This document shows positions 3,195 through 62,339 of a DNA stretch of 64,000 nucleotides, in pieces. Numbering within the stretch: position 1 is the first letter of the stretch; each line of letters starts with the position of its first letter. The notes below the pieces were generated by a model. It was given only the letters and a program-made list of their open reading frames with translations, made no database searches and was not told the DNA's origin. The translations under genes and the position numbers were made by a program. The stretch lies in assembly GCA_964016885.1 (NCBI GenBank), contig OZ024740.1:442308001-442372000 (forward strand), written 5' to 3'. Source of the DNA: Eledone cirrhosa. Lineage: Eukaryota.

Positions 3195-3372
3195 GTTTCC
3201 ATTGGTCTTTTCAATTGCTAATACTATCTATCGGTCGCAACTCCAGGTAGAAGGAGCAACGTGAAATAAAGTGTCTTGCCCAAGGACATAACGCATCGCC
3301 CGGTCCAGGAATCGAACTCACAACCTCACGATTGAGAGTTCAATTCTCTTACCACTCAGCCACGCGCCTCCA
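3195..3372 (-). mobile_element. tRNA-derived SINE with CORE-like domain
   Basis: Minus strand: A-box-like tggctgagtgg, B-box gagttcgattcc, then tgtccttgggcaagacactttatttcacgttgctcc; copies at ~5230, ~26893, ~39078. Confidence 0.8.
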
Positions 3373-3475
3373 CCATATATATATTTCCAGTCTCAACAAG
3401 GAAGATGAAAAAACTTACCTCTTGATTTTAAATCTTTAATTTTTAGCTTTTAATTCTTATTAATTCTTTTAAATT

Positions 3476-3520
3476 AATTTGACAAGATGAATTTTTAGTA
3501 ATACATCGAAACCGGTAATA
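3476..3520 (+). ncRNA. Type I hammerhead ribozyme variant (U3-A8 core), weak stem I
   Basis: TTGACAA, stem II GATG..CATC, GAAA, palindromic CCGG, TA; stem I only ~2 bp. Confidence 0.5.
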
Positions 3521-3740
3521 CTTTATATACATTATATGCTATATATACTTTATATACATTATATACTATATATATTTTATATACTTTATATACATTATAA
3601 GACTCTTTTTTAAACAAATTGTCCCCCTCATTTTTTCAATAATGTCACTTTGACGATTCAAAGAAAGGAACAAATAAAGAAAAACAGACCCTAAAATATA
3701 TTTTCCGTGCTATTTCCAATCTCACCTTTTCTCTCTTTCT

Positions 3741-10808: not shown

Positions 10809-12222
10809 GTATTAAATTAACAATGAAAATAATAGCAACAAAGTCGAGTTATTTTACCTATTCATATTGTTTTACGATCGTTTCGGAGGGTTGATCATAT
10901 TGGCATATTGTCTGATCTATAGCAGTTATATGACATAATTCTATTTTAGAAGGTTTTATTAAGTAATGCTTTAAATATCGGTTTACTACTAAAAAACATC
11001 CATATTTTATTAAATTCCTTCAAAGTTTTAATATAGATATTGGATACACCTAGGCAGGCTATCTGATTAGAAATACGACAAAGAAAGGTTAAAACAGGCT
11101 AATTTCATAAATAAATTATACTAACATTTTAACAATAACCTCTTCCCTCTCATATCACAACATATCTATGTAGATCATATCTAAATCCAGTCGACATTCT
11201 CTTCTGATAAAGTATTTTTAAAGCCAAAATATCGAAATATAAATTATTGTGAAACACGTTTTATTTTGGCCTCACTTTATTATTTTCACTTTATTATTTA
11301 CATTGTAGTGACTTTCTAAAACACTTTTAAATATGTTTGATAATCCTTGATATAAAGTATACGGGTCTATTATATAAGATGGACTCTCTCGTCGTGTTCG
11401 ACCCATGAGGGCCAAAAGATTTTAGTATCCCTTTACACCATATTCTAGTGTTTGTGTTTTCTGTAGCCTAATTCGAAGGTAGATTTGACCCTCCACCCTG
11501 TTTAACACCACTAACTGGTGTTTACGTGCCTTAAATGGAATCCACTTTGTTGCAAGTATTTGGACCAGATCTCGCCTATTACCAGTTCGGCTGCCCTGGA
11601 AATTATCAAAGGTTGTCCTATTTTGCTCGAGTAAACTGTGAAAAAATAAAACATCGATCCTCTATACAGTTGGATATCATCTGGTGTATTTGGGGTAACG
11701 GTGTGTGCAATGTTTGACTAAACAACACATGCATAAGACTGTTTTATCAAGTTTGGTTTGCAGCATGACATAATTGTGAACATATAAGTACTACAGAAAT
11801 CCCTTTACAACGATATTCAAATATTCATGTCATTGAAGGACCTAATTATTGTCAAGATTAGAACTATTAATATGGAGTATAGAAACCATCTTATATAGTC
11901 GAGGAGTAGGATGCTATTATTATGGTAAGTCAGCAAGTTCTAGTCCCAGCTATGACTAGTTCTTATCACTTATGCTCCAAGGTTTATCGAAATATAATTA
12001 GAATCAAACAAAAACATTAAAAAGGAGAAGTCAACCCAAATATGAACGCCATAACTGTCATCATCTTTGAAAATTGGTTGGCATATTCCTTAGTTGATCA
12101 ATATTGCTGACATTGGACTATCAATATAACATATAGATGTTATTGCAGCTGTGGAAAATGTAGTTAACACTGTCTATACATCGCTCTCTCTCTCCTCTTT
12201 ATATCTTTTTCTATCTTTCTCA

Positions 12223-15657: not shown

Positions 15658-18600
15658 TTTCTCTTTCTCTTAATTTTGAGTATATTTTTTGACCGGCCAC
15701 CTTCCTGGTGGCAAGGTTGTAAAAGAAAAGAAATTGTCATCCCTTGAATCGCAAGAATGTTTTGCAAATTTTGAAGGTGCCAGCTATCGCAGCCATTTGT
15801 AGACTATGAATTAGGGAGCTGCGCTTTTTGTCCGCAAATCCAAGTTCAGTCATACTTTGGTCCAAGCGGGTTGGTATATAACCCGTAGCACCAATAATGA
15901 TGGGTATGAAGCTAAAGGTGTATCTTGGATACTGGATTTGTAAACTCCTCATCAATGGTCCGTAGATGTCCTCCTTCTCCTGTATTTTTCTGACAACGTT
16001 TACATCAAGTGGGCAGCTGATCTCCACAACAGAACACGTTTTCAATGTGTGGTCCCAAACTACAATATCAGGCCGGTTGTGCTTTAATTTCAGGTTCCAC
16101 CAGTATTCCTTAGTGCCATCTGTCTCAATATATTCTTCCTCGTTTGTTGTTCATTTTGTTTTCCGAAGTGCGTTCCAGATGGTTCTAGCTATCCCATCGT
16201 GTCTCATGGGGAGGTAGTAGCGAGATGACATTCTTTCGCAGCTGGCAACAATGTGGCTTACATCCTCGATCTTTGTTTTACATAGCCTACATTTATTGTC
16301 AGCTGCTGGCGCTCCTCTTTTGTGCAGCAGATATTTGGTAGGGAGTTCTTGTTCCTGTATTGCATAGAGATATCCCTCAAGGTGTGATGTCATAAACTTG
16401 TCGGAACTCCATGCCAGGCTTTTTGAGTGGTTTATCCCCTCTATGGTCTGTGTTTTACGCCTCAAGTATCCATGCACAACTTTTTCTGTAAATTGGTCAA
16501 TTTTTTTTTCTTGTTTGAACATTGAATAGGATCTTCCGATTTCTCTGGGTGAGAGATTTATATCGGGCTTTATTCCATATCTCTCCTCCAGATCAGTCGC
16601 TATTCTAATGATATTTCTTTTTTCATGGTCATAAACCTGGGCAAGATGGTTGCCAACCTTTTTCCTCTGTTGAAGGTGTTGCTTCAGTGTCACTATCCGG
16701 GTCTCATATGTTGTTAATATTGATTTTAGACCCCGGCCACCTTCCTTGCGTGAGAAGTATAGCCTATCCACATCACCATTGATGTTAAAGTTCCCAGTAA
16801 CACTGAGAAGTTTTCGAGTTCTAACATCCATCTCACTTAGTTCTTGCAATGACCAGTTCAGTAGGCCAAATGTTGGCGTTAGAATTGGCACATCATAAGT
16901 ATTGTGGGCAATGTATTTGTTGTATGCTGACAGTTCTGATGACCATATTTTCTTTACTCTTCTGACAGTTCTGGTTCTCTCCTTATTTATGGGTCCATCA
17001 TATCTGACATTCTCATCCTGTCCAAGATATCTGTAGTTGTCACCTGACTGCAGAGGTTGTATTGTCAGGCCGTTCATCTCTAGATTTCTAGAGGAGGGCA
17101 CAGCTCTTCCACGTTTTACTGCCAAATATGCACACTTGGACTCACCAAATTTCATTTTGATGTCGGTTGAAAATTGTGTGATGAGGTCCAATTGTTTCTT
17201 GATGTCATTGATATTTGGCCCATACAACTTCAGGTCATCAACAAAGAAAAGATGGGAGATACTTCTGGTCCCACTTCTTTGTCGACCTTGTTTCCTGAGT
17301 AGGTAAGATAGTGGATTCAGTGAGAGAACGAAGAGTAGCACTGACAAGCTATCACCCTGAAAGATGCCCTTCTGGTAATGTATCTTATCAGTCTTAACCT
17401 GCTCCTTCTCACCTCTAAGGATCAAACTGGTGTACCAGTTCTTGGTCAGGCGTTCAACAGCAGCTACCAATGGTTGTGGGACTTTAGCTAACTGTAAAGC
17501 CTTAACAATCCACCCATGAGGTACACTATCAAATGCTTTTTGATAGTCCAGCCACACGACAGTCATGTTTCTGCGATTCTTTGTTGTTTTTTCCTGAATC
17601 ATTTTGTTAGTTAGTAGGTGATCTATGCAACCCCACACCTCCCTCTTTCCACCAGCTTGCTCAGGTGTTATGATGTTGTTGGTAGCACAGTGATCCTGTA
17701 AGAACAGGTTAAGGCACCCAGTATATAATTTATACATGATATTTTGGCAGGCAATTGGGCGGTAATTTTTAGCAAGGGTGGTTTGGCTATTTTTGGGAAT
17801 GAGGAGAGTAGAGGCAGTTGATAACCATCTGGGCAGTTCTTGTGTGCCCTTAATGGTTTCTGTAAACAGCCGTATGAGATCTTGCCGATAGAAAGTGAAA
17901 TTCTTCAACCAGTATCCTGTAATGAGGTCTGGGCCTGGCGATTTCCTATTCGACATTTTCTGTAGAGCTGTTTCCAGTATTGACCCATCTATGTCATATT
18001 GTTTTGTCTGGACATGTTGGCAGTAGTCCTGTTCCAGTTCTTTTAGCCAATTAGCTTGTCTGTTGAATCCGTCATCCGTTTCCCATACAGATCTCCAGTA
18101 GCTCTCAACCTGTTCTTTTGAAGGGGTGTCATTTACAGAGATTGAGCTTTTGCCACCGAAGCTGCGATAAACTGATTTAGGATCTCTGGCAAACAATCTA
18201 TTTAGCACTTGTCGTTTATGTGCTGTTGACTTATATTTTAGTCTTTCTGTTGTAGCTGTGAGGTGTTGTTTCAACTGGTGTAATTTGGAGTTCAAAGTTT
18301 TAAATTTTGTATCTCCAAATCTTCTCTCTAACTTTTTCTTTAGGTCTTCCTGGTGTTGTGTGAAGTTGCTCTCTATGTTGCATTTCATAACGACTGCGAT
18401 GTGTGAGATACTTCGTCTCAGGGACAAAATTTTGGTTTTTAAATTTCGCATCGACGCTGGTTCAGGCTTTCTGTTTGTATCTTGATTGCGTGGTTTTAGA
18501 TGTGTGTTATATGCTAGCAATGTGACAGCTGAAACATATAACAAAACATTAAGCGTTTCAAATGTCGTTTCTACACCTTTAGATCGTATAGCCTTCAGAT

Positions 18601-19633
18601 AATTGCCAGCTATTTCGTTCACCGCTTCCAATTCCAATTTAGTGGGTTCTTTACTGACTCTAGTGTTGTATGGTCTGTCACTCACATTAAGGCTGTGTAT
18701 CTCTTGAAACATATCATTCCATATCACTTGTAGGGAGCCCACAAGTTTTTGGTGCTCTGTTTGTTCAGTAGAGTCATGAATTTCAGCCTCGTTGTTGATG
18801 TGGTGACAATTACTACTAGAGTCAGCTGACCTTTCTCGCTGTTCTTCAGTGGAAGTGGGATGAATTTCAGCAAAATTGTTGGTGAGCTGTTCACTGTTAG
18901 ATTTAGCTGGCCATTCTCTTTGTCTGTCAGTGGAGGTGGGGTGGTTGTCTACAAGGGCTGTATTTGTAGTATCACTCGATTCCGTTAGATGTATCAATTT
19001 ACATCTAATGATACGTTTTGCCTGTTCATTTAAATGCTTTGGAGAAAAGTCTAATTCTGGGTGTTTGGAGTTCCATAAAGTTTTTAGCCTTTGCATAAAA
19101 CCGAACTTTTGGGGTTCAGATTGTTTGTATGCTTCATATAATACTTTGTTAAGCTCGTAGGTCCACTGTGTACAACGGTTGTAATTGCGATTTGGTCGAA
19201 GGAGACTTGTACTTTTTGCCATGATGAGTTCGTCTATTCACTAATATTTCGTATTTATTTTTCAAAATAGTCGATGATCTTCTTTAAAAGTTACGACAAA
19301 GTTCTGTCAGAACCAAATTTAAAGTTATTCACAGCTTGAGTAATATTTCTTTTCGGTTAGTTTTTAATTCTACAGCTGTGTTTTATATAAATGTAATATT
19401 TCTTTATAAATGTAATATAACAACGTTGCATTTATATGTTAAAGTGTATGTATCGTTCATATAAATAGGTGTTTTACAACACACTTACAGTTCAAACACT
19501 TATGTAGAATTATTGTATGTAATCTTACCGCGTAATGTAGCTCAACTTTTTCCAATATATGGTATGTTGCCTTCATGTAAGCCGTAATTACACACGTCCG
19601 ATTATCGGACACTGACCACAACGGTCGCCATTT
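15658..19633 (-). mobile_element. Near full-length RLE-type non-LTR retrotransposon (R4/Dong-like)
   Basis: Single long ORF with RT, CCHC and PD-(D/E)xK endonuclease; ~410-bp 5' UTR and short 3' UTR; both ends abut (TATG)n. Confidence 0.9.
15737..19222 (-). CDS. RT plus restriction-like endonuclease polyprotein interrupted by one in-frame TGA (16151-16153)
   Basis: KSPGPD, YRPIAC, WLDYQKAFDSVPH, GIFQGDSLS, FVDDLKLY, YRYLG, GGRGL, CRLC..EDVSHIVASC, RHD; in the same frame after the TGA: EYWWN..HNRPDIVVWD..VVEISCP..KEDIY. Confidence 0.9.
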
Positions 19634-23766: not shown

Positions 23767-23879
23767 ATCTTAATAGCCATTTGAACTGTCAACAGGCTGC
23801 GGTTCGCACACACATCACTGCTAACCATTATCACAACATCGAAGACTTTACTACTACTACACACACACACACACACACA

Positions 23880-24246
23880 TATTTGTTGTGAAAGAGTCAT
23901 TTCTCAGTCTTGGCGCAAAATCAATTTTTTACATTCACATGACCTCTACCGACCAATCAAAATTGTTTTGACGACAATAATTTTTGCAACACCAAGTAGC
24001 GCTGGTGCCACTTTTTAAACATAAAAATAGGTAGAATTCCCAAAACTAATCAGACCAGAGCAAACAACACGGACGCTCTATCTCAAAATTATTTTTGAAA
24101 AGCATTTAGAAATGCGCAACCGGTAAAAACTTAAAAACTTAAAACCACAACTGAATACTAACCCATACAATTACTAATACTCTTTTATTGCTAATTAAAC
24201 TATTTTTCAACCGTGAACAATTTGTCAGCATTTTCTATTCCGTTTA

Positions 24247-24252
<6 letters not shown>
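23880..24252 (+). mobile_element. Short (TA)n-terminated element with HHR variant
   Basis: Closely similar copy at 57788-58270; contains GACCAATC and the HHR-like motif at 24092. Confidence 0.8.
24092..24128 (+). ncRNA. Hammerhead variant (U3-A8; GCAA in place of GAAA)
   Basis: TTT, TTGAAAA, GCATTT ag AAATGC, GCAA, CCGG, TA, AAA. Confidence 0.5.
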
Positions 24253-24318
<66 letters not shown>

Positions 24319-49604: not shown

Positions 49605-49707
49605 ATATATTTCCAAGAGATGTCAACATGAATGGACCTGTTATTTTCATCTAAAGACATTTTTTCCAATTCCAACACGCCTCAATCTATCTTATTTCTC
49701 ATTCTTT

Positions 49708-49741
49708 CTTTTGATGAAGGACTAGCGTCCGAAACGTTAAG
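49708..49741 (+). ncRNA. Minimal PLE-type hammerhead ribozyme (U3 variant)
   Basis: CTT, TTGATGA-A, GGAC tagc GTCC, GAAA, CG, TT, AAG; element ~49610-49828 between (TA)n tracts. Confidence 0.7.
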
Positions 49742-49865
49742 GCCCTCTTCCTGCTATTTCAAGCGTTAACCTAATATATTCTTTCCATATACTGTACCTA
49801 TTGTGTTGTTTTTCTGTTTACCTTTTACATATATATATGTATATATATATGTGTGTGTATATATA

Positions 49866-57318: not shown

Positions 57319-57787
57319 AGTTAGTTACATCCATTAATTTTATTGTGTTCTACTTGCCTGCGTGTATATATGTATATATATATATAAATACACGCAGCGA
57401 GAAGCGAGAAGCGAAAACCAACCAAACAATGAGTGTGTTCTGTTAGAAATGAATGGAATAACAACAACACCCAAACAAACAACACTGACCTAAGAGAAGT
57501 ATAAATAAGTAAATAAAATAAAATAAATAAATAAATAAATAAATAAATACATACACAAGCACAATAACAACAAGCACATAAACACACACTAGTCACCCAT
57601 CACACAGCAAACAAAACACTATACACACACACGCAAACGCATGCGCAAAGAAGACAAAATAAAATAAACAAACAAGCAAATAAATAAATAAATATATAGA
57701 CAGACTGAATAAAAATGGCGTAGACATACAATACAACAGGAGGAAAATATAGCACCACTGACGCACACACACACACACACACACACA

Positions 57788-58270
57788 TATTTGTTGTGAA
57801 AGAGTCATTTCTCAATCTTGGCGCAAAACCAATTTTTTATTCACATGACCTCTACCGACCAATCAAAATTGTTTTGACCACAAGAATTGTTGCTGGAGCC
57901 ACTTTTTTTAACATAAAAACAGTCTTGGCGCAAAATCAATTTTTTACACTCACATGACCTCTACCGACCAATCAAAATTGTTTTGACCACAAGAAATTTT
58001 GCAACACCAAAGTAACGCTGGAGCCACTTTTTTAACATAAAAACAGGTAGAATTCCCAAAACTAATCAGATCAGAGCAAACAGCACGGACACTCTATCTC
58101 CAAATTATTTTTGAAGAGCATTTAGAAATGCGCAACCGGTAAAAACTTAAAAACTTAAAACCACAACTGAATACTAACCCATACAATCACTAATACTCTT
58201 TTATTCCTAATTAAACCATTTTTCAACTGTGAACAATTTGTCAGCATTTTCTATTCCGTTTACCAATATA
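57788..58270 (+). mobile_element. Second copy of the 23880-24252 element with an internal ~105-bp duplication
   Basis: Direct similarity; tcttggcgcaaaa..aacataaaaacag occurs twice. Confidence 0.85.
58108..58144 (+). ncRNA. Hammerhead variant (U3.G8; GCAA)
   Basis: TTT, TTGAAGA, GCATTT ag AAATGC, GCAA, CCGG, TA, AAA. Confidence 0.45.
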
Positions 58271-58305
58271 TAATAACTTGTGTGTTACACCTCTATTCTT
58301 TTAAC

Positions 58306-58614: not shown

Positions 58615-58660
58615 AATATGGTTTTATAAATATAGTTTCCATTTGTATATATATATATAT

Positions 58661-58798
58661 TAGAAAGTGAAGTTTTCTTTACAAAATGAAAAATAACCGA
58701 GGTGTCCTACACGAGTGAAAGTATAAAGAAAAAAAGATGAAATCGAAAATTCAACTGTAGTCTTATTTTAAAAACAAATATATATTTATTTGGTTCCT
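58661..58798 (-). mobile_element. 3' portion of the 62042-62275 element, in (TA)n
   Basis: Reverse complement aligns to 62136-62275. Confidence 0.85.
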
Positions 58799-58929
58799 AT
58801 ATATATATATATATATATACAATAAAATTATATATATATATATACACAAAATAACATTATATATATATATATATATTGATATTTTATATATATATATATT
58901 GATATAAATATATATATATATATATATAT

Positions 58930-61990: not shown

Positions 61991-62046
<56 letters not shown>

Positions 62047-62101
62047 AAAACCACAGACTCTCAGATGTGAGAAAAACCTCAGACCCTCCATCTCAACTCT
62101 A

Positions 62102-62137
62102 CTTTTGAAAAGCAGAAGAACTGCGAAACCGGTAAAG
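62102..62137 (+). ncRNA. Minimal hammerhead ribozyme with U3-A8 core
   Basis: CTT, TTGAAAA, GCAG aagaa CTGC, GAAA, palindromic CCGG, TA, AAG; element 62042-62275 between (TA)n tracts. Confidence 0.75.
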
Positions 62138-62269
62138 GAACCAAATAAATATATATATTTTTTTAAAAAATAAGACTCCAGTTGCATTTTCGATTTCATC
62201 TTTTTTTCTTTATACTTTCACTCGTGTAGGACACTACGGTTATTTTTCATTGTGTAAAAAAAACCTCAC

Positions 62270-62339
<70 letters not shown>

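What the first reader, a model, noticed from the sequence alone, without database searches (positions are those of the whole stretch)
62102..62137. Natural U3-A8 compensatory core variants in three different elements
Seen: cores TTGAAAA (62105 and 24095) and TTGACAA (3479) replace CTGANGA, so C3->U occurs together with G8->A. U3.G8 forms occur at 58111 and 49711. All three U3-A8 motifs share the stem III palindrome ACCGGT and a GUA site but have different stem II sequences. Known: C3-G8 is a tertiary Watson-Crick pair in the active hammerhead and U3-A8 can partly substitute. Inference: an HHR lineage that canonical CUGANGA searches would miss.
Basis: partly seen in the sequence, partly recalled or inferred. 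Interest (0 to 1): 0.75.

Follow-up and report, generated by a model that had tools for sequence, protein, structure and literature searches.

The report
Variant hammerhead motif in Penelope-like repeats
A short motif present about 23,600 times in this genome's Penelope-like jumping repeats matches the hammerhead self-cutting RNA except for a U-A pair in place of the usual C-G core pair, a swap already published for such elements, and it is predicted, not shown, to cut as a dimer.

Summary
The sequences are there as described, with corrections. 62105 is the consensus of a ~215-nt interspersed repeat (family A). TTGANAA-N6-36-GAAACCGGT occurs 23,626 times in the genome against 90 for the reversed control.

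24095 and 58111 are two copies of one Penelope-like element (family B: GIY-YIG ORF downstream of a weak RT hit). Family A's head is homologous to it, so these are not three independent elements. Family B reads GCAA, not GAAA (A13 to C). The G8 at 58111 is private to that copy. 49711 belongs to a C3-G8 family with a U3.G8 subfamily.

Across five U3-A8 families the hammerhead core is invariant. Helix II covaries at 4 of 4 pairs, helix I is 2 bp, and helix III is the palindrome ACCGGU. This is the minimal, dimer-type hammerhead of Penelope-like elements. 5'-truncated copies start most often at the nucleotide after the predicted GUA site.

No Rfam hammerhead model detects the motif, so the "missed lineage" inference holds. 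However, Cervera and de la Pena (2014) already reported U3-A8 in such elements, and this scan noted it before on other DNA of this genome (e1-9516796). Cleavage is untested. Verdict: a new member of a known kind, of moderate interest.

The parts
62044..62276 (+). Family A element copy. Head CTCAGATGTGAG at 62060, preceded by a 16-nt partial duplicate at 62044-62059. Tail ...CTCACTTTCTAA runs into (TA)n.
   Evidence: 30 loci at 98-100% identity. The consensus ends in (TA)n and is usually preceded by (TA)n.
62097..62142 (+). Hammerhead-like motif of family A. Helix I 5' strand 62103-62104; U3-A9 62105-62111; helix II 62112-62124; G12-A14 62125-62127; palindromic helix III ACCGGT 62128-62133; A17 62134. 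Predicted cut between 62134 and 62135. Helix I 3' strand 62135-62136.
   Evidence: sequence; covariation; model R1, 52.2 bits; this family was in the training alignment; dimer cofold.
24087..24133 (+). Family B copy of the motif: U3/A8, helix II GCATT/AATGC, but GCAA in place of G12-A13-A14-A15.1.
23859..24256 (+). 3' part of a 5'-truncated Penelope-like element (family B), ending at (TA)n.
   Evidence: copy at 57767-58272; stepwise 5' truncation over at least 1.75 kb; GIY-YIG and weak RT ORFs upstream in L179/L121.
58103..58149 (+). Second family B copy of the motif, with a private A8-to-G change (TTGAAGA) and GCAA.
3471..3525 (+). Family C copy of the motif: TTGACAA, long helix II GATG..CATC, GAAACCGGT, A17.
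   Evidence: The family consensus is TTGATAA; 22 of 23 matched loci keep U3/A8.
49703..49745 (+). Family F minimal hammerhead, copy with U3.G8: TTGATGA-A-GGAC-tagc-GTCC-GAAA-CG-TT, then AAGG.
   Evidence: 19 of 30 sampled copies have CTGATGA and 11 have TTGATGA.
58660..58801 (-). 5'-truncated family A copy. It starts at (A)GGAACC, 1-2 nt after the predicted cleavage site, directly after (TA)n.

Best explanation
The 62105 motif is the conserved hammerhead-like core (U3-A8 in place of C3-G8) of a ~215-nt non-autonomous repeat whose head is homologous to a Penelope-like retroelement, and it is predicted to self-cleave after GUA as a dimer formed through its palindromic ACCGGU helix III.

Shown:
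- Copy number, and the invariant core nucleotides U4 G5 A6, A9, G12 A13 A14, A15.1/U16.1 and H17 = A or C.
- A covarying helix II closed by G10.1-C11.1.
- A 2-bp helix I.
- Location about 130-200 nt before the 3' end of repeats that end in (TA)n or (CA)n microsatellites.
- Head-to-head inverted copies.
- A GIY-YIG ORF, with a weak RT match before it, upstream in family B.

Inferred:
- The element RNA folds this way, and two sense copies pair through ACCGGU.
- U3 pairs with A8 as C3 pairs with G8.
- The RNA is cut between A17 and A1.1, trimming element transcripts. The 3' product can still be reverse transcribed, which would explain the truncated copies that begin at A1.1.
For: (1) Abundance. 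There are 23,626 matches against 90 for the control. Family A copies are 98-100% identical.

(2) Covariation. At least five families differ in helix II while keeping the flanking core. On 9 sequences, 4 of 4 helix II pairs change on both sides and 94% of cells pair. Pair 2.1-1.1 is U-A in 9 of 9, and 2.2-1.2 is A-U in 5 and U-A in 3. The covariation score is 0.73 against 0.19 for shuffles (0 of 500 reach it), and the slid controls give at most 0.14.

(3) Element context. Family B is the 3' end of a long, stepwise 5'-truncated element. It carries GIY-YIG ORFs (30.3 and 25.0 bits, cut-off 22.6) downstream of a weak RVT_1 match. B's 3' 1.8 kb has no canonical CTGANGA..GAAA. The family A head aligns to B. 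In 18 of 30 family A loci a second copy lies in the opposite orientation.

(4) These are published traits of the hammerheads of Penelope-like elements: a short helix I, G10.1-C11.1, palindromic 15.2-16.2, motif pairs on opposite strands, and a U3-A8 variant (PMC4209133, passages).

(5) Fold. The dimer cofold MFE (-24.3 kcal/mol) holds both helix II hairpins and the intermolecular ACCGGU helix.

(6) 5' ends.
- Of 16,001 copies of the downstream anchor, 278 lack the motif within a 7-nt junction window.
- An 8-nt control window gives 70.
- Of the 100 listed rows, I set aside 11 as indel variants and 1 as a duplicate.
- My hand tally by longest match of the other 88: 24 junctions at A1.1, 16 at -4 (mostly (TA)n+AAAGG, which can also be read as A1.1), 14 at G1.3, 11 at A1.2, 11 at A17, 4 at -5 and 8 at -6.
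- In the unfiltered sample, 3 of the 5 non-full rows start at A1.1.

(7) At family level only C-G, U.G and U-A occur at positions 3/8.
Against: - No cleavage or RNA data.
- No Rfam hammerhead model matches, even at E up to 10 on 1,250 bases.
- Helix I is only 2 bp.
- The monomer cannot form helix III, because the loop would be 2 nt.
- Family B carries A13-to-C yet its copies are 96-100% identical, so it spread recently without a canonical core.
- In family A the mismatch form C3.A8 (51 hits, 7 of them in one segmental array) is not rarer than the wobble U3.G8 (22 hits).
- Positions 3 and 8 never covary inside the U3-A8 lineage.
- The 5'-end peak is modest, at about 0.5% of copies. It was hand-tallied from 100 of 278 rows and is blurred by AT-rich flanks. 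A truncated master copy or microhomology with (TA)n targets could also produce it.
- Published minimal hammerheads of Penelope-like elements cleave poorly in vitro.
Confidence: 0.6

Rival explanations
1. The motif descends from a hammerhead of a Penelope-like element but no longer cleaves. It would be kept, or merely inherited in young copies, as a structured RNA signal, for example for the element's reverse transcriptase or for transcript stability.
For: - Family B spreads with GCAA, which breaks A13.
- Helix I is 2 bp.
- There is no selection signal at positions 3/8 among family A copies.
- Minimal hammerheads of Penelope-like elements have low in-vitro activity (PMC4209133).
- Authors have suggested that hammerheads are dispensable for these elements to proliferate (PMC8557442, passages).
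Against: - Every remaining catalytic nucleotide is invariant across five families that differ freely in helix II and flanks. That is hard to explain without selection on the core.
- Truncated copies start most often at the predicted scissile bond.
Confidence: 0.25
2. The conserved hairpin and its flanks act at the DNA level or as a protein-binding site, such as an endonuclease, RT or promoter element of the repeat. On this reading the likeness to a hammerhead is coincidental.
For: - The motif lies about 45 nt from the shared 5' end of the short elements A and B'. A promoter or binding site could sit there.
- Rfam models do not match.
Against: - Eleven core positions, G10.1-C11.1, A15.1/U16.1, H17 not G and a palindromic helix III all coincide with the hammerhead.
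- The motif lies in a retroelement class in which such ribozymes are reported in the terminal repeats of canonical members (PMC6765202 and PMC8557442, passages).
- Helix II keeps pairing, not sequence.
Confidence: 0.08
3. The resemblance is a chance match of an AT-rich repeat that became abundant only because the repeat amplified.
For: - One amplified family (A) accounts for most of the 23,626 hits.
- AT-rich DNA readily yields TTGAAAA and GAAA.
Against: - Several families that are diverged or unalignable outside the motif share it, with compensatory helix II changes.
- The reversed-pattern control gives 90 hits.
Confidence: 0.05

Closest known systems
U3-A8 variant of the minimal hammerheads (min-HHR) of Schistosoma mansoni Cercyon Penelope-like elements (Cervera and de la Pena 2014, PMC4209133; passages read)
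   Same: - U3-A8 in place of C3-G8.
- Sits in the terminal region of a Penelope-like element.
- Minimal or palindromic helix III that implies a dimer.
- G10.1-C11.1.
- Many solo copies, and pairs on opposite strands 100-700 bp apart.
- Missed by the CUGANGA descriptor.
   Different: - A different genome and different families.
- Here helix III is a 6-nt palindrome, ACCGGU.
- Most families have no extra base between A9 and G10.1.
- About 23,600 copies, against about 1,300 reported hits.
- The repeats end in (TA)n.
- I did not see the paper's figure or supplements, so I did not compare the sequences.
Drosophila virilis Penelope hammerhead (same paper, passages read)
   Same: A 2-bp helix I, a 2-nt palindromic insertion in helix III, a long helix II, and near-identical copies from a recent invasion.
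   Different: The passages I read give no U3-A8 swap for it. It has a bulge in helix II.
Canonical type-I hammerhead family of this same genome (Rfam RF00163 hits)
   Same: Type-I layout and a short helix III (ACAUUGU). Carried by an interspersed repeat.
   Different: - C3-G8, a GUC site, a longer helix I and non-palindromic helix III ends.
- Detected by Rfam: 18 of 74 scored candidates reach the cut-off.
- Unrelated flanks.
Family F minimal hammerhead of this genome (49711 type)
   Same: The same layout, with CUU before the core and AAGG after the site. A U3.G8 subfamily (11 of 30 copies) bridges C3-G8 and U3-A8.
   Different: G8 in all 30 copies, helix III ACGU with no loop, U17, and an extra A after A9.
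Dimer-cleaving hammerhead variants of Penelope-like elements (Lunse, Weinberg and Breaker, RNA Biol; only its title seen, in the reference list of PMC6765202; not held)
   Same: By its title, small hammerhead variants in Penelope-like elements that cleave as dimers.
   Different: I could not read it. It may already cover core variants such as this one.

Membership tests
Hammerhead ribozyme (type I, minimal/dimeric class of Penelope-like elements) | Core nucleotides U4 G5 A6, A9, G12 A13 A14 | tested here: met
   Invariant in families A, B', C, D and E. NOT met in family B, which includes the window copies at 24095 and 58111: it reads GCAA, with C at position 13.
Hammerhead ribozyme (type I, minimal/dimeric class of Penelope-like elements) | C3-G8 tertiary Watson-Crick pair | tested here: inconclusive
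   U3/A8 could form a Watson-Crick pair and is fixed in five families. At family level only C-G, U.G and U-A are seen. There is no covariation inside the lineage and no wobble preference among single mutants. The pairing itself cannot be tested with these tools.
Hammerhead ribozyme (type I, minimal/dimeric class of Penelope-like elements) | Helix II closed by G10.1-C11.1 and supported by covariation | tested here: met
   4 of 4 pairs change on both sides and 94% of cells pair. G-C closes the helix in 6 of 9 sequences; family E has U-A or U.U there.
Hammerhead ribozyme (type I, minimal/dimeric class of Penelope-like elements) | Helix I between the strand 5' of position 3 and the strand 3' of the cleavage site | tested here: inconclusive
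   Only 2 bp are conserved. Pair 2.1-1.1 is U-A in 9 of 9. Pair 2.2-1.2 pairs in 8 of 9, with both-side changes. The third pair is unpaired in 6 of 9. A 2-bp helix I is reported for D. virilis Penelope.
Hammerhead ribozyme (type I, minimal/dimeric class of Penelope-like elements) | A15.1-U16.1, a short palindromic helix III, and H17 not G | tested here: met
   ACCGGU is followed by A (families A, B, C, E) or C (family D). The intermolecular helix III appears in the dimer MFE.
Hammerhead ribozyme (type I, minimal/dimeric class of Penelope-like elements) | Match to curated Rfam hammerhead models | tested here: not met
   No hit at gathering score. No hammerhead hit at E up to 10 on ten short stretches totalling 1,250 bases. 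The models require C3-G8 and a closed helix III.
Hammerhead ribozyme (type I, minimal/dimeric class of Penelope-like elements) | Site-specific self-cleavage | not testable with these tools
   The only evidence is indirect. The commonest 5' junction of truncated copies is at A1.1: 24 of the 88 rows I could classify by hand, and 3 of the 5 non-full rows.
Penelope-like element (EN+ with C-terminal GIY-YIG) | Reverse transcriptase followed by a GIY-YIG endonuclease | tested here: met
   In L179, GIY-YIG scores 30.3 and 25.0 bits (cut-off 22.6) in both inverted family B copies. In one copy it lies downstream of an ORF with a weak RVT_1 match (17.8 bits, below the cut-off). The copies are 5'-truncated, so I did not see the full ORF.
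Penelope-like element (EN+ with C-terminal GIY-YIG) | Stepwise 5' truncation, inverted 5'-truncated copy head to head, insertion bias for microsatellites | tested here: met
   truncation profile; 18 of 30 family A loci hold an inverted partner; (TA)n or (CA)n at the ends. The traits are as described in PMC8557442.
Naiad clade of Penelope-like elements | N-terminal GIY-YIG endonuclease ahead of the RT | tested here: not met
   In family B the GIY-YIG ORF lies 3' of the RT-like ORF. I saw only truncated copies, and no autonomous partner of families A and C-E was found.

The most novel reading that the evidence does not exclude
A whole superfamily of microsatellite-targeting Penelope-like elements and their short derivatives runs on a U3-A8 hammerhead that descriptor and Rfam searches cannot see. 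On this reading the hammerhead is active in vivo. The retro-copies that begin exactly at the scissile bond, and the break in A/B homology at that same bond, would be genomic fossils of ribozyme cleavage, and perhaps of ligation-mediated RNA recombination.
Probability: 0.3. Interest if true: 0.55.

Novelty: new member of a known kind. Interest (0 to 1): 0.35.

Why it matters
[quoted passage not shown] Any statement that a retroelement clade lacks hammerheads depends on the descriptor used.
- The lineage offers natural constructs for testing the 3-8 pair: U3-A8 families, a C3-G8 family with a U3.G8 subfamily, and a family carrying A13C.
- The positions where truncated copies start give a cheap genomic read-out of whether these weak, dimer-type ribozymes cut in vivo.
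- The core swap itself is already published, so this is not a new principle.

Tried and rejected
- Rfam at gathering score on the window: 0 hits.
- Rfam at E up to 10 on the window: 267 matches, mostly microsatellite look-alikes of miRNA families. None of the 150 listed is a hammerhead; 117 were not shown.
- Rfam at E up to 10 on ten short stretches: 4 weak matches. One is a structureless MALAT1 match over 62087-62139 (E 9.4), which I take as chance.
- The five canonical-looking CTGANGA..GAAAC sites of the window gave no hammerhead match. I did not pursue them.
- CTGANGA-N6-36-GAAACCGGT genome-wide: 143 against 179 for the control. There is no C3-G8 sister family with this helix III.
- Public RNA runs: no RNA holder listed. 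No reads were laid.
- ARAGORN on the window: no tRNA.
- Earlier-findings look-ups by sequence and by place near the window: nothing.
- Wobble-versus-mismatch count in family A: 22 against 51. This gives no support for selection on the 3-8 pair among copies.
- Model R1 on the window: beyond the four known sites, only a 17-bit hit at 11572-11617(-). It has no helix II and reads GAAC, so I rejected it.
- The paper by Lunse et al. is not held. The supplements of PMC4209133 were not opened, and they may list families like these.
- A first MAFFT run timed out. It was rerun with faster settings.

Full report
**1. Observation**

| Site | Sequence |
|---|---|
| 62105 | TTGAAAA GCAG-aagaa-CTGC GAAA CCGGT A |
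| 3479 | TTGACAA GATG...CATC GAAA CCGGT A |
| 24095 | TTGAAAA GCATT-taga-AATGC GCAA CCGGT A |
| 58111 | the same as 24095, with TTGAAGA |
| 49711 | TTGATGA A GGAC-tagc-GTCC GAAA CG TT |

Three counts show this is more than chance:
- TTGANAA-N4-34-GAAACCGGT occurs twice in the window against 0.00 expected.
- AACCGGTA occurs 4 times against a mean of 1.09; 3 of 100 shuffles reach 4.
- In the 2.996-Gb genome, TTGANAA-N6-36-GAAACCGGT occurs 23,626 times against 90 for the reversed control.

**2. What the sites belong to**

*Family A.* The 62105 site is the consensus of a ~215-nt interspersed repeat.
- The head is CTCAGATGTGAG. The motif occupies positions 46-75. An AT-rich stretch follows, and the tail ...CTCACTTTCTAA runs into (TA)n.
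- The 30 fetched copies are 98-100% identical over the 81-nt query.
- In 18 of 30 loci a second copy lies in the opposite orientation, mostly head to head. The two are joined at a palindrome made of the 12-nt terminal hairpin.

*Family B.* 24095 and 58111 are 95% identical copies of one element.
- It is the 3' end of a long element with stepwise 5' truncation over at least 1.75 kb.
- Upstream ORFs match GIY-YIG at 30.3 and 25.0 bits (cut-off 22.6). In one copy they follow an ORF with a weak RVT_1 match at 17.8 bits.
- This is the domain order of a Penelope-like element with a C-terminal endonuclease, not of a Naiad.
- Its 3' 1.8 kb holds no canonical CTGANGA..GAAA.
- All 26 family B motifs that my pattern found in 30 loci read TTGAAAA and GCAA. 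The G8 at 58111 is private to that copy.

*Relation of A to B.* Family A positions 2-77, from the head up to the predicted cleavage site, align at 77% with the homologous stretch of family B. A short element B' (L185, with GAAA) starts at the same position as family A's head. So A and B are one lineage.

*Family C.* The 3479 site belongs to a separate ~350-nt repeat. Its consensus is TTGATAA, and 22 of 23 matched loci keep U3/A8.

*Other families.* Further families appear in the genome list. D has helix II GATGG/CCATC and a GUC site. E has GCAT/AUGC. G has AGCAU/AUGCU. All end in (TA)n or (CA)n about 150-200 nt after the motif.

*Family F.* The 49711 site belongs to a minimal hammerhead family in which 19 of 30 sampled copies have C3, 11 have U3, and all have G8.

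**3. Is it a hammerhead?**

I aligned nine sequences from families A, B, B', C, D and E.
- U3 U4 G5 A6, A8 A9, G12, A14, A15.1, CCGG and U16.1 are invariant. A13 is invariant except in B.
- Helix II changes on both sides at 4 of 4 pairs, and 94% of cells pair.
- Helix I is 2 bp. Pair 2.1-1.1 is U-A in 9 of 9. Pair 2.2-1.2 is A-U in 5, U-A in 3 and unpaired in 1.
- The covariation score is 0.73 against 0.19 for shuffles (0 of 500 reach it), and at most 0.14 when partners are slid. The sample is small and the families are related.
- A cofold of two family A motifs puts both helix II hairpins and the intermolecular ACCGGU helix in the MFE, at -24.3 kcal/mol.

Against membership:
- No Rfam hammerhead model matches.
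- The monomer cannot close helix III.
- Family B lacks A13, yet its copies are 96-100% identical.

**4. The 3-8 pair**

- No C3-G8 family with this helix III exists: 143 hits against 179 for the control, and none of the listed ones is a plausible hammerhead.
- Inside the lineage U3 and A8 are fixed, so they cannot covary.
- Among family A copies the single changes are rare and show no wobble preference. C3.A8 has 51 hits, 7 of them in one segmental array. U3.G8 has 22 hits.
- At family level only C-G, U.G (the family F subfamily) and U-A are seen. This fits a pair but does not prove one.

**5. Indirect test of cleavage**

If the RNA is cut after GUA, and the 3' product is sometimes reverse transcribed, truncated copies should begin at A1.1.
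- The anchor GGAACCAAATAAATATA has 16,001 hits. Of the 100 listed rows, 5 lack the motif, and 3 of those 5 begin exactly at AAGG.
- A filter for copies that lack the motif within a 7-nt junction window gave 278 hits. An 8-nt control window upstream of the motif gave 70.
- I tallied the 100 listed rows by hand, by longest match to the element. I set aside 11 indel variants and 1 duplicate. The other 88 are in the table.

| Junction (position relative to GGAACC) | Rows of 88 |
|---|---|
| A1.1 (-2) | 24 |
| -4 | 16 |
| G1.3 (0) | 14 |
| A1.2 (-1) | 11 |
| A17 (-3) | 11 |
| -5 | 4 |
| -6 | 8 |

- The -4 class is mostly (TA)n+AAAGG, which can equally be read as a start at A1.1.
- The window itself holds one such copy at 58660-58801(-), which starts 1-2 nt after the site.
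- So the predicted bond is the commonest start. The peak is modest, at about 0.5% of copies. The flanks are AT-rich, and a truncated master copy or microhomology with (TA)n targets could also produce it.

**6. Literature**

- Cervera and de la Pena 2014 (PMC4209133; passages read) describe minimal, dimer-type hammerheads in the terminal repeats of Penelope-like elements. The traits they report are:
  - G10.1-C11.1 and palindromic 15.2-16.2;
  - a 2-bp helix I in D. virilis;
  - motif pairs on opposite strands;
  - low in-vitro activity;
  - a U3-A8 covariation in S. mansoni Cercyon elements, with about 1,300 hits.
- Craig et al. 2021 (PMC8557442; passages) describe the inverted 5'-truncated copies and the microsatellite bias. 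Their hammerhead searches used cuganga cores.
- A review (PMC6765202; passages) and a 2026 preprint (10.64898/2026.07.22.740005; passages) tie hammerheads and retrozymes to these elements.
- Searches for U3-A8 together with hammerhead found only the 2014 paper in the held library.
- This scan had already noted U3-A8 cores in other repeats of this genome and pointed to that paper (e1-9516796). I checked the paper myself.

**7. Verdict**

The motif is most likely (about 0.6) a hammerhead of the Penelope-like-element type with a U3-A8 core, predicted to cut as a dimer after GUA or GUC. It is very abundant here and invisible to standard models. The main rival (about 0.25) is a hammerhead-derived relic that no longer cuts. 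It is a new member of a known kind. The core swap is published, and cleavage remains untested.

Noticed in passing
L004-L029 (e.g. L006, L013, L019); window 62044-62078: Head-to-head inverted pairs of family A share one copy of the 12-nt terminal hairpin (GGTTTTTCTCA-CATC-TGAGAAAAACC). This is what a snap-back of a single-stranded copy primed from its own 3' hairpin would leave.
   Followed up: partly
window 62060-62136 vs L121:1511-1588: Homology between family A and the Penelope-like family B runs from the head exactly to the predicted cleavage site (within 2 nt). Beyond it the tails are unrelated. This could be chance, or a recombination joint at the ribozyme site.
   Followed up: partly
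window 24118-24121 and 58134-58137; L119-L148: Family B carries C at hammerhead position 13 (GCAA) in all 26 motifs seen, yet its copies are 96-100% identical. A short relative (L185) keeps GAAA.
   Followed up: partly
L041-L058 (G000, e.g. C3:10277077-10277121): A canonical type-I hammerhead family (CTGATGAGTCCTAAATAGGACGAAACATTGTC) reaches the Rfam RF00163 cut-off in 18 of 74 scored candidates. It lies in a different interspersed repeat.
   Followed up: partly
window 16151-19237 (-): A 1,028-aa open frame with RVT_1 (87 bits) and zf-RVT. By its domains it is a non-LTR-type reverse transcriptase gene, unrelated to the motif.
   Followed up: no
window 3300-3370 (-): A tRNA-like stretch (reverse complement ends ...GGTTCGATTCCTGGACCGG) lies next to the family C copy. 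ARAGORN calls no tRNA, so it may be a SINE head.
   Followed up: no
G000 C1:348863669-348949713: Seven C3.A8 copies of the family A motif are spaced about 9.6 kb apart on one strand. This is a tandem segmental array that carries one mutated copy.
   Followed up: no
whole window: Long (TA)n and (CA)n microsatellites flank most repeat copies and give dozens of false miRNA-family matches in Rfam at loose thresholds. The window lies about 0.5 Mb from the end of a 442.9-Mb contig.
   Followed up: no
G000, control junction window upstream of CAACTCTACTTTTGAAA: Truncated family A copies also cluster at (A)TCTCAAC and CCATCT, about 20-25 nt upstream of the core. These may be secondary 5'-end hot spots of unknown cause.
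   Followed up: no
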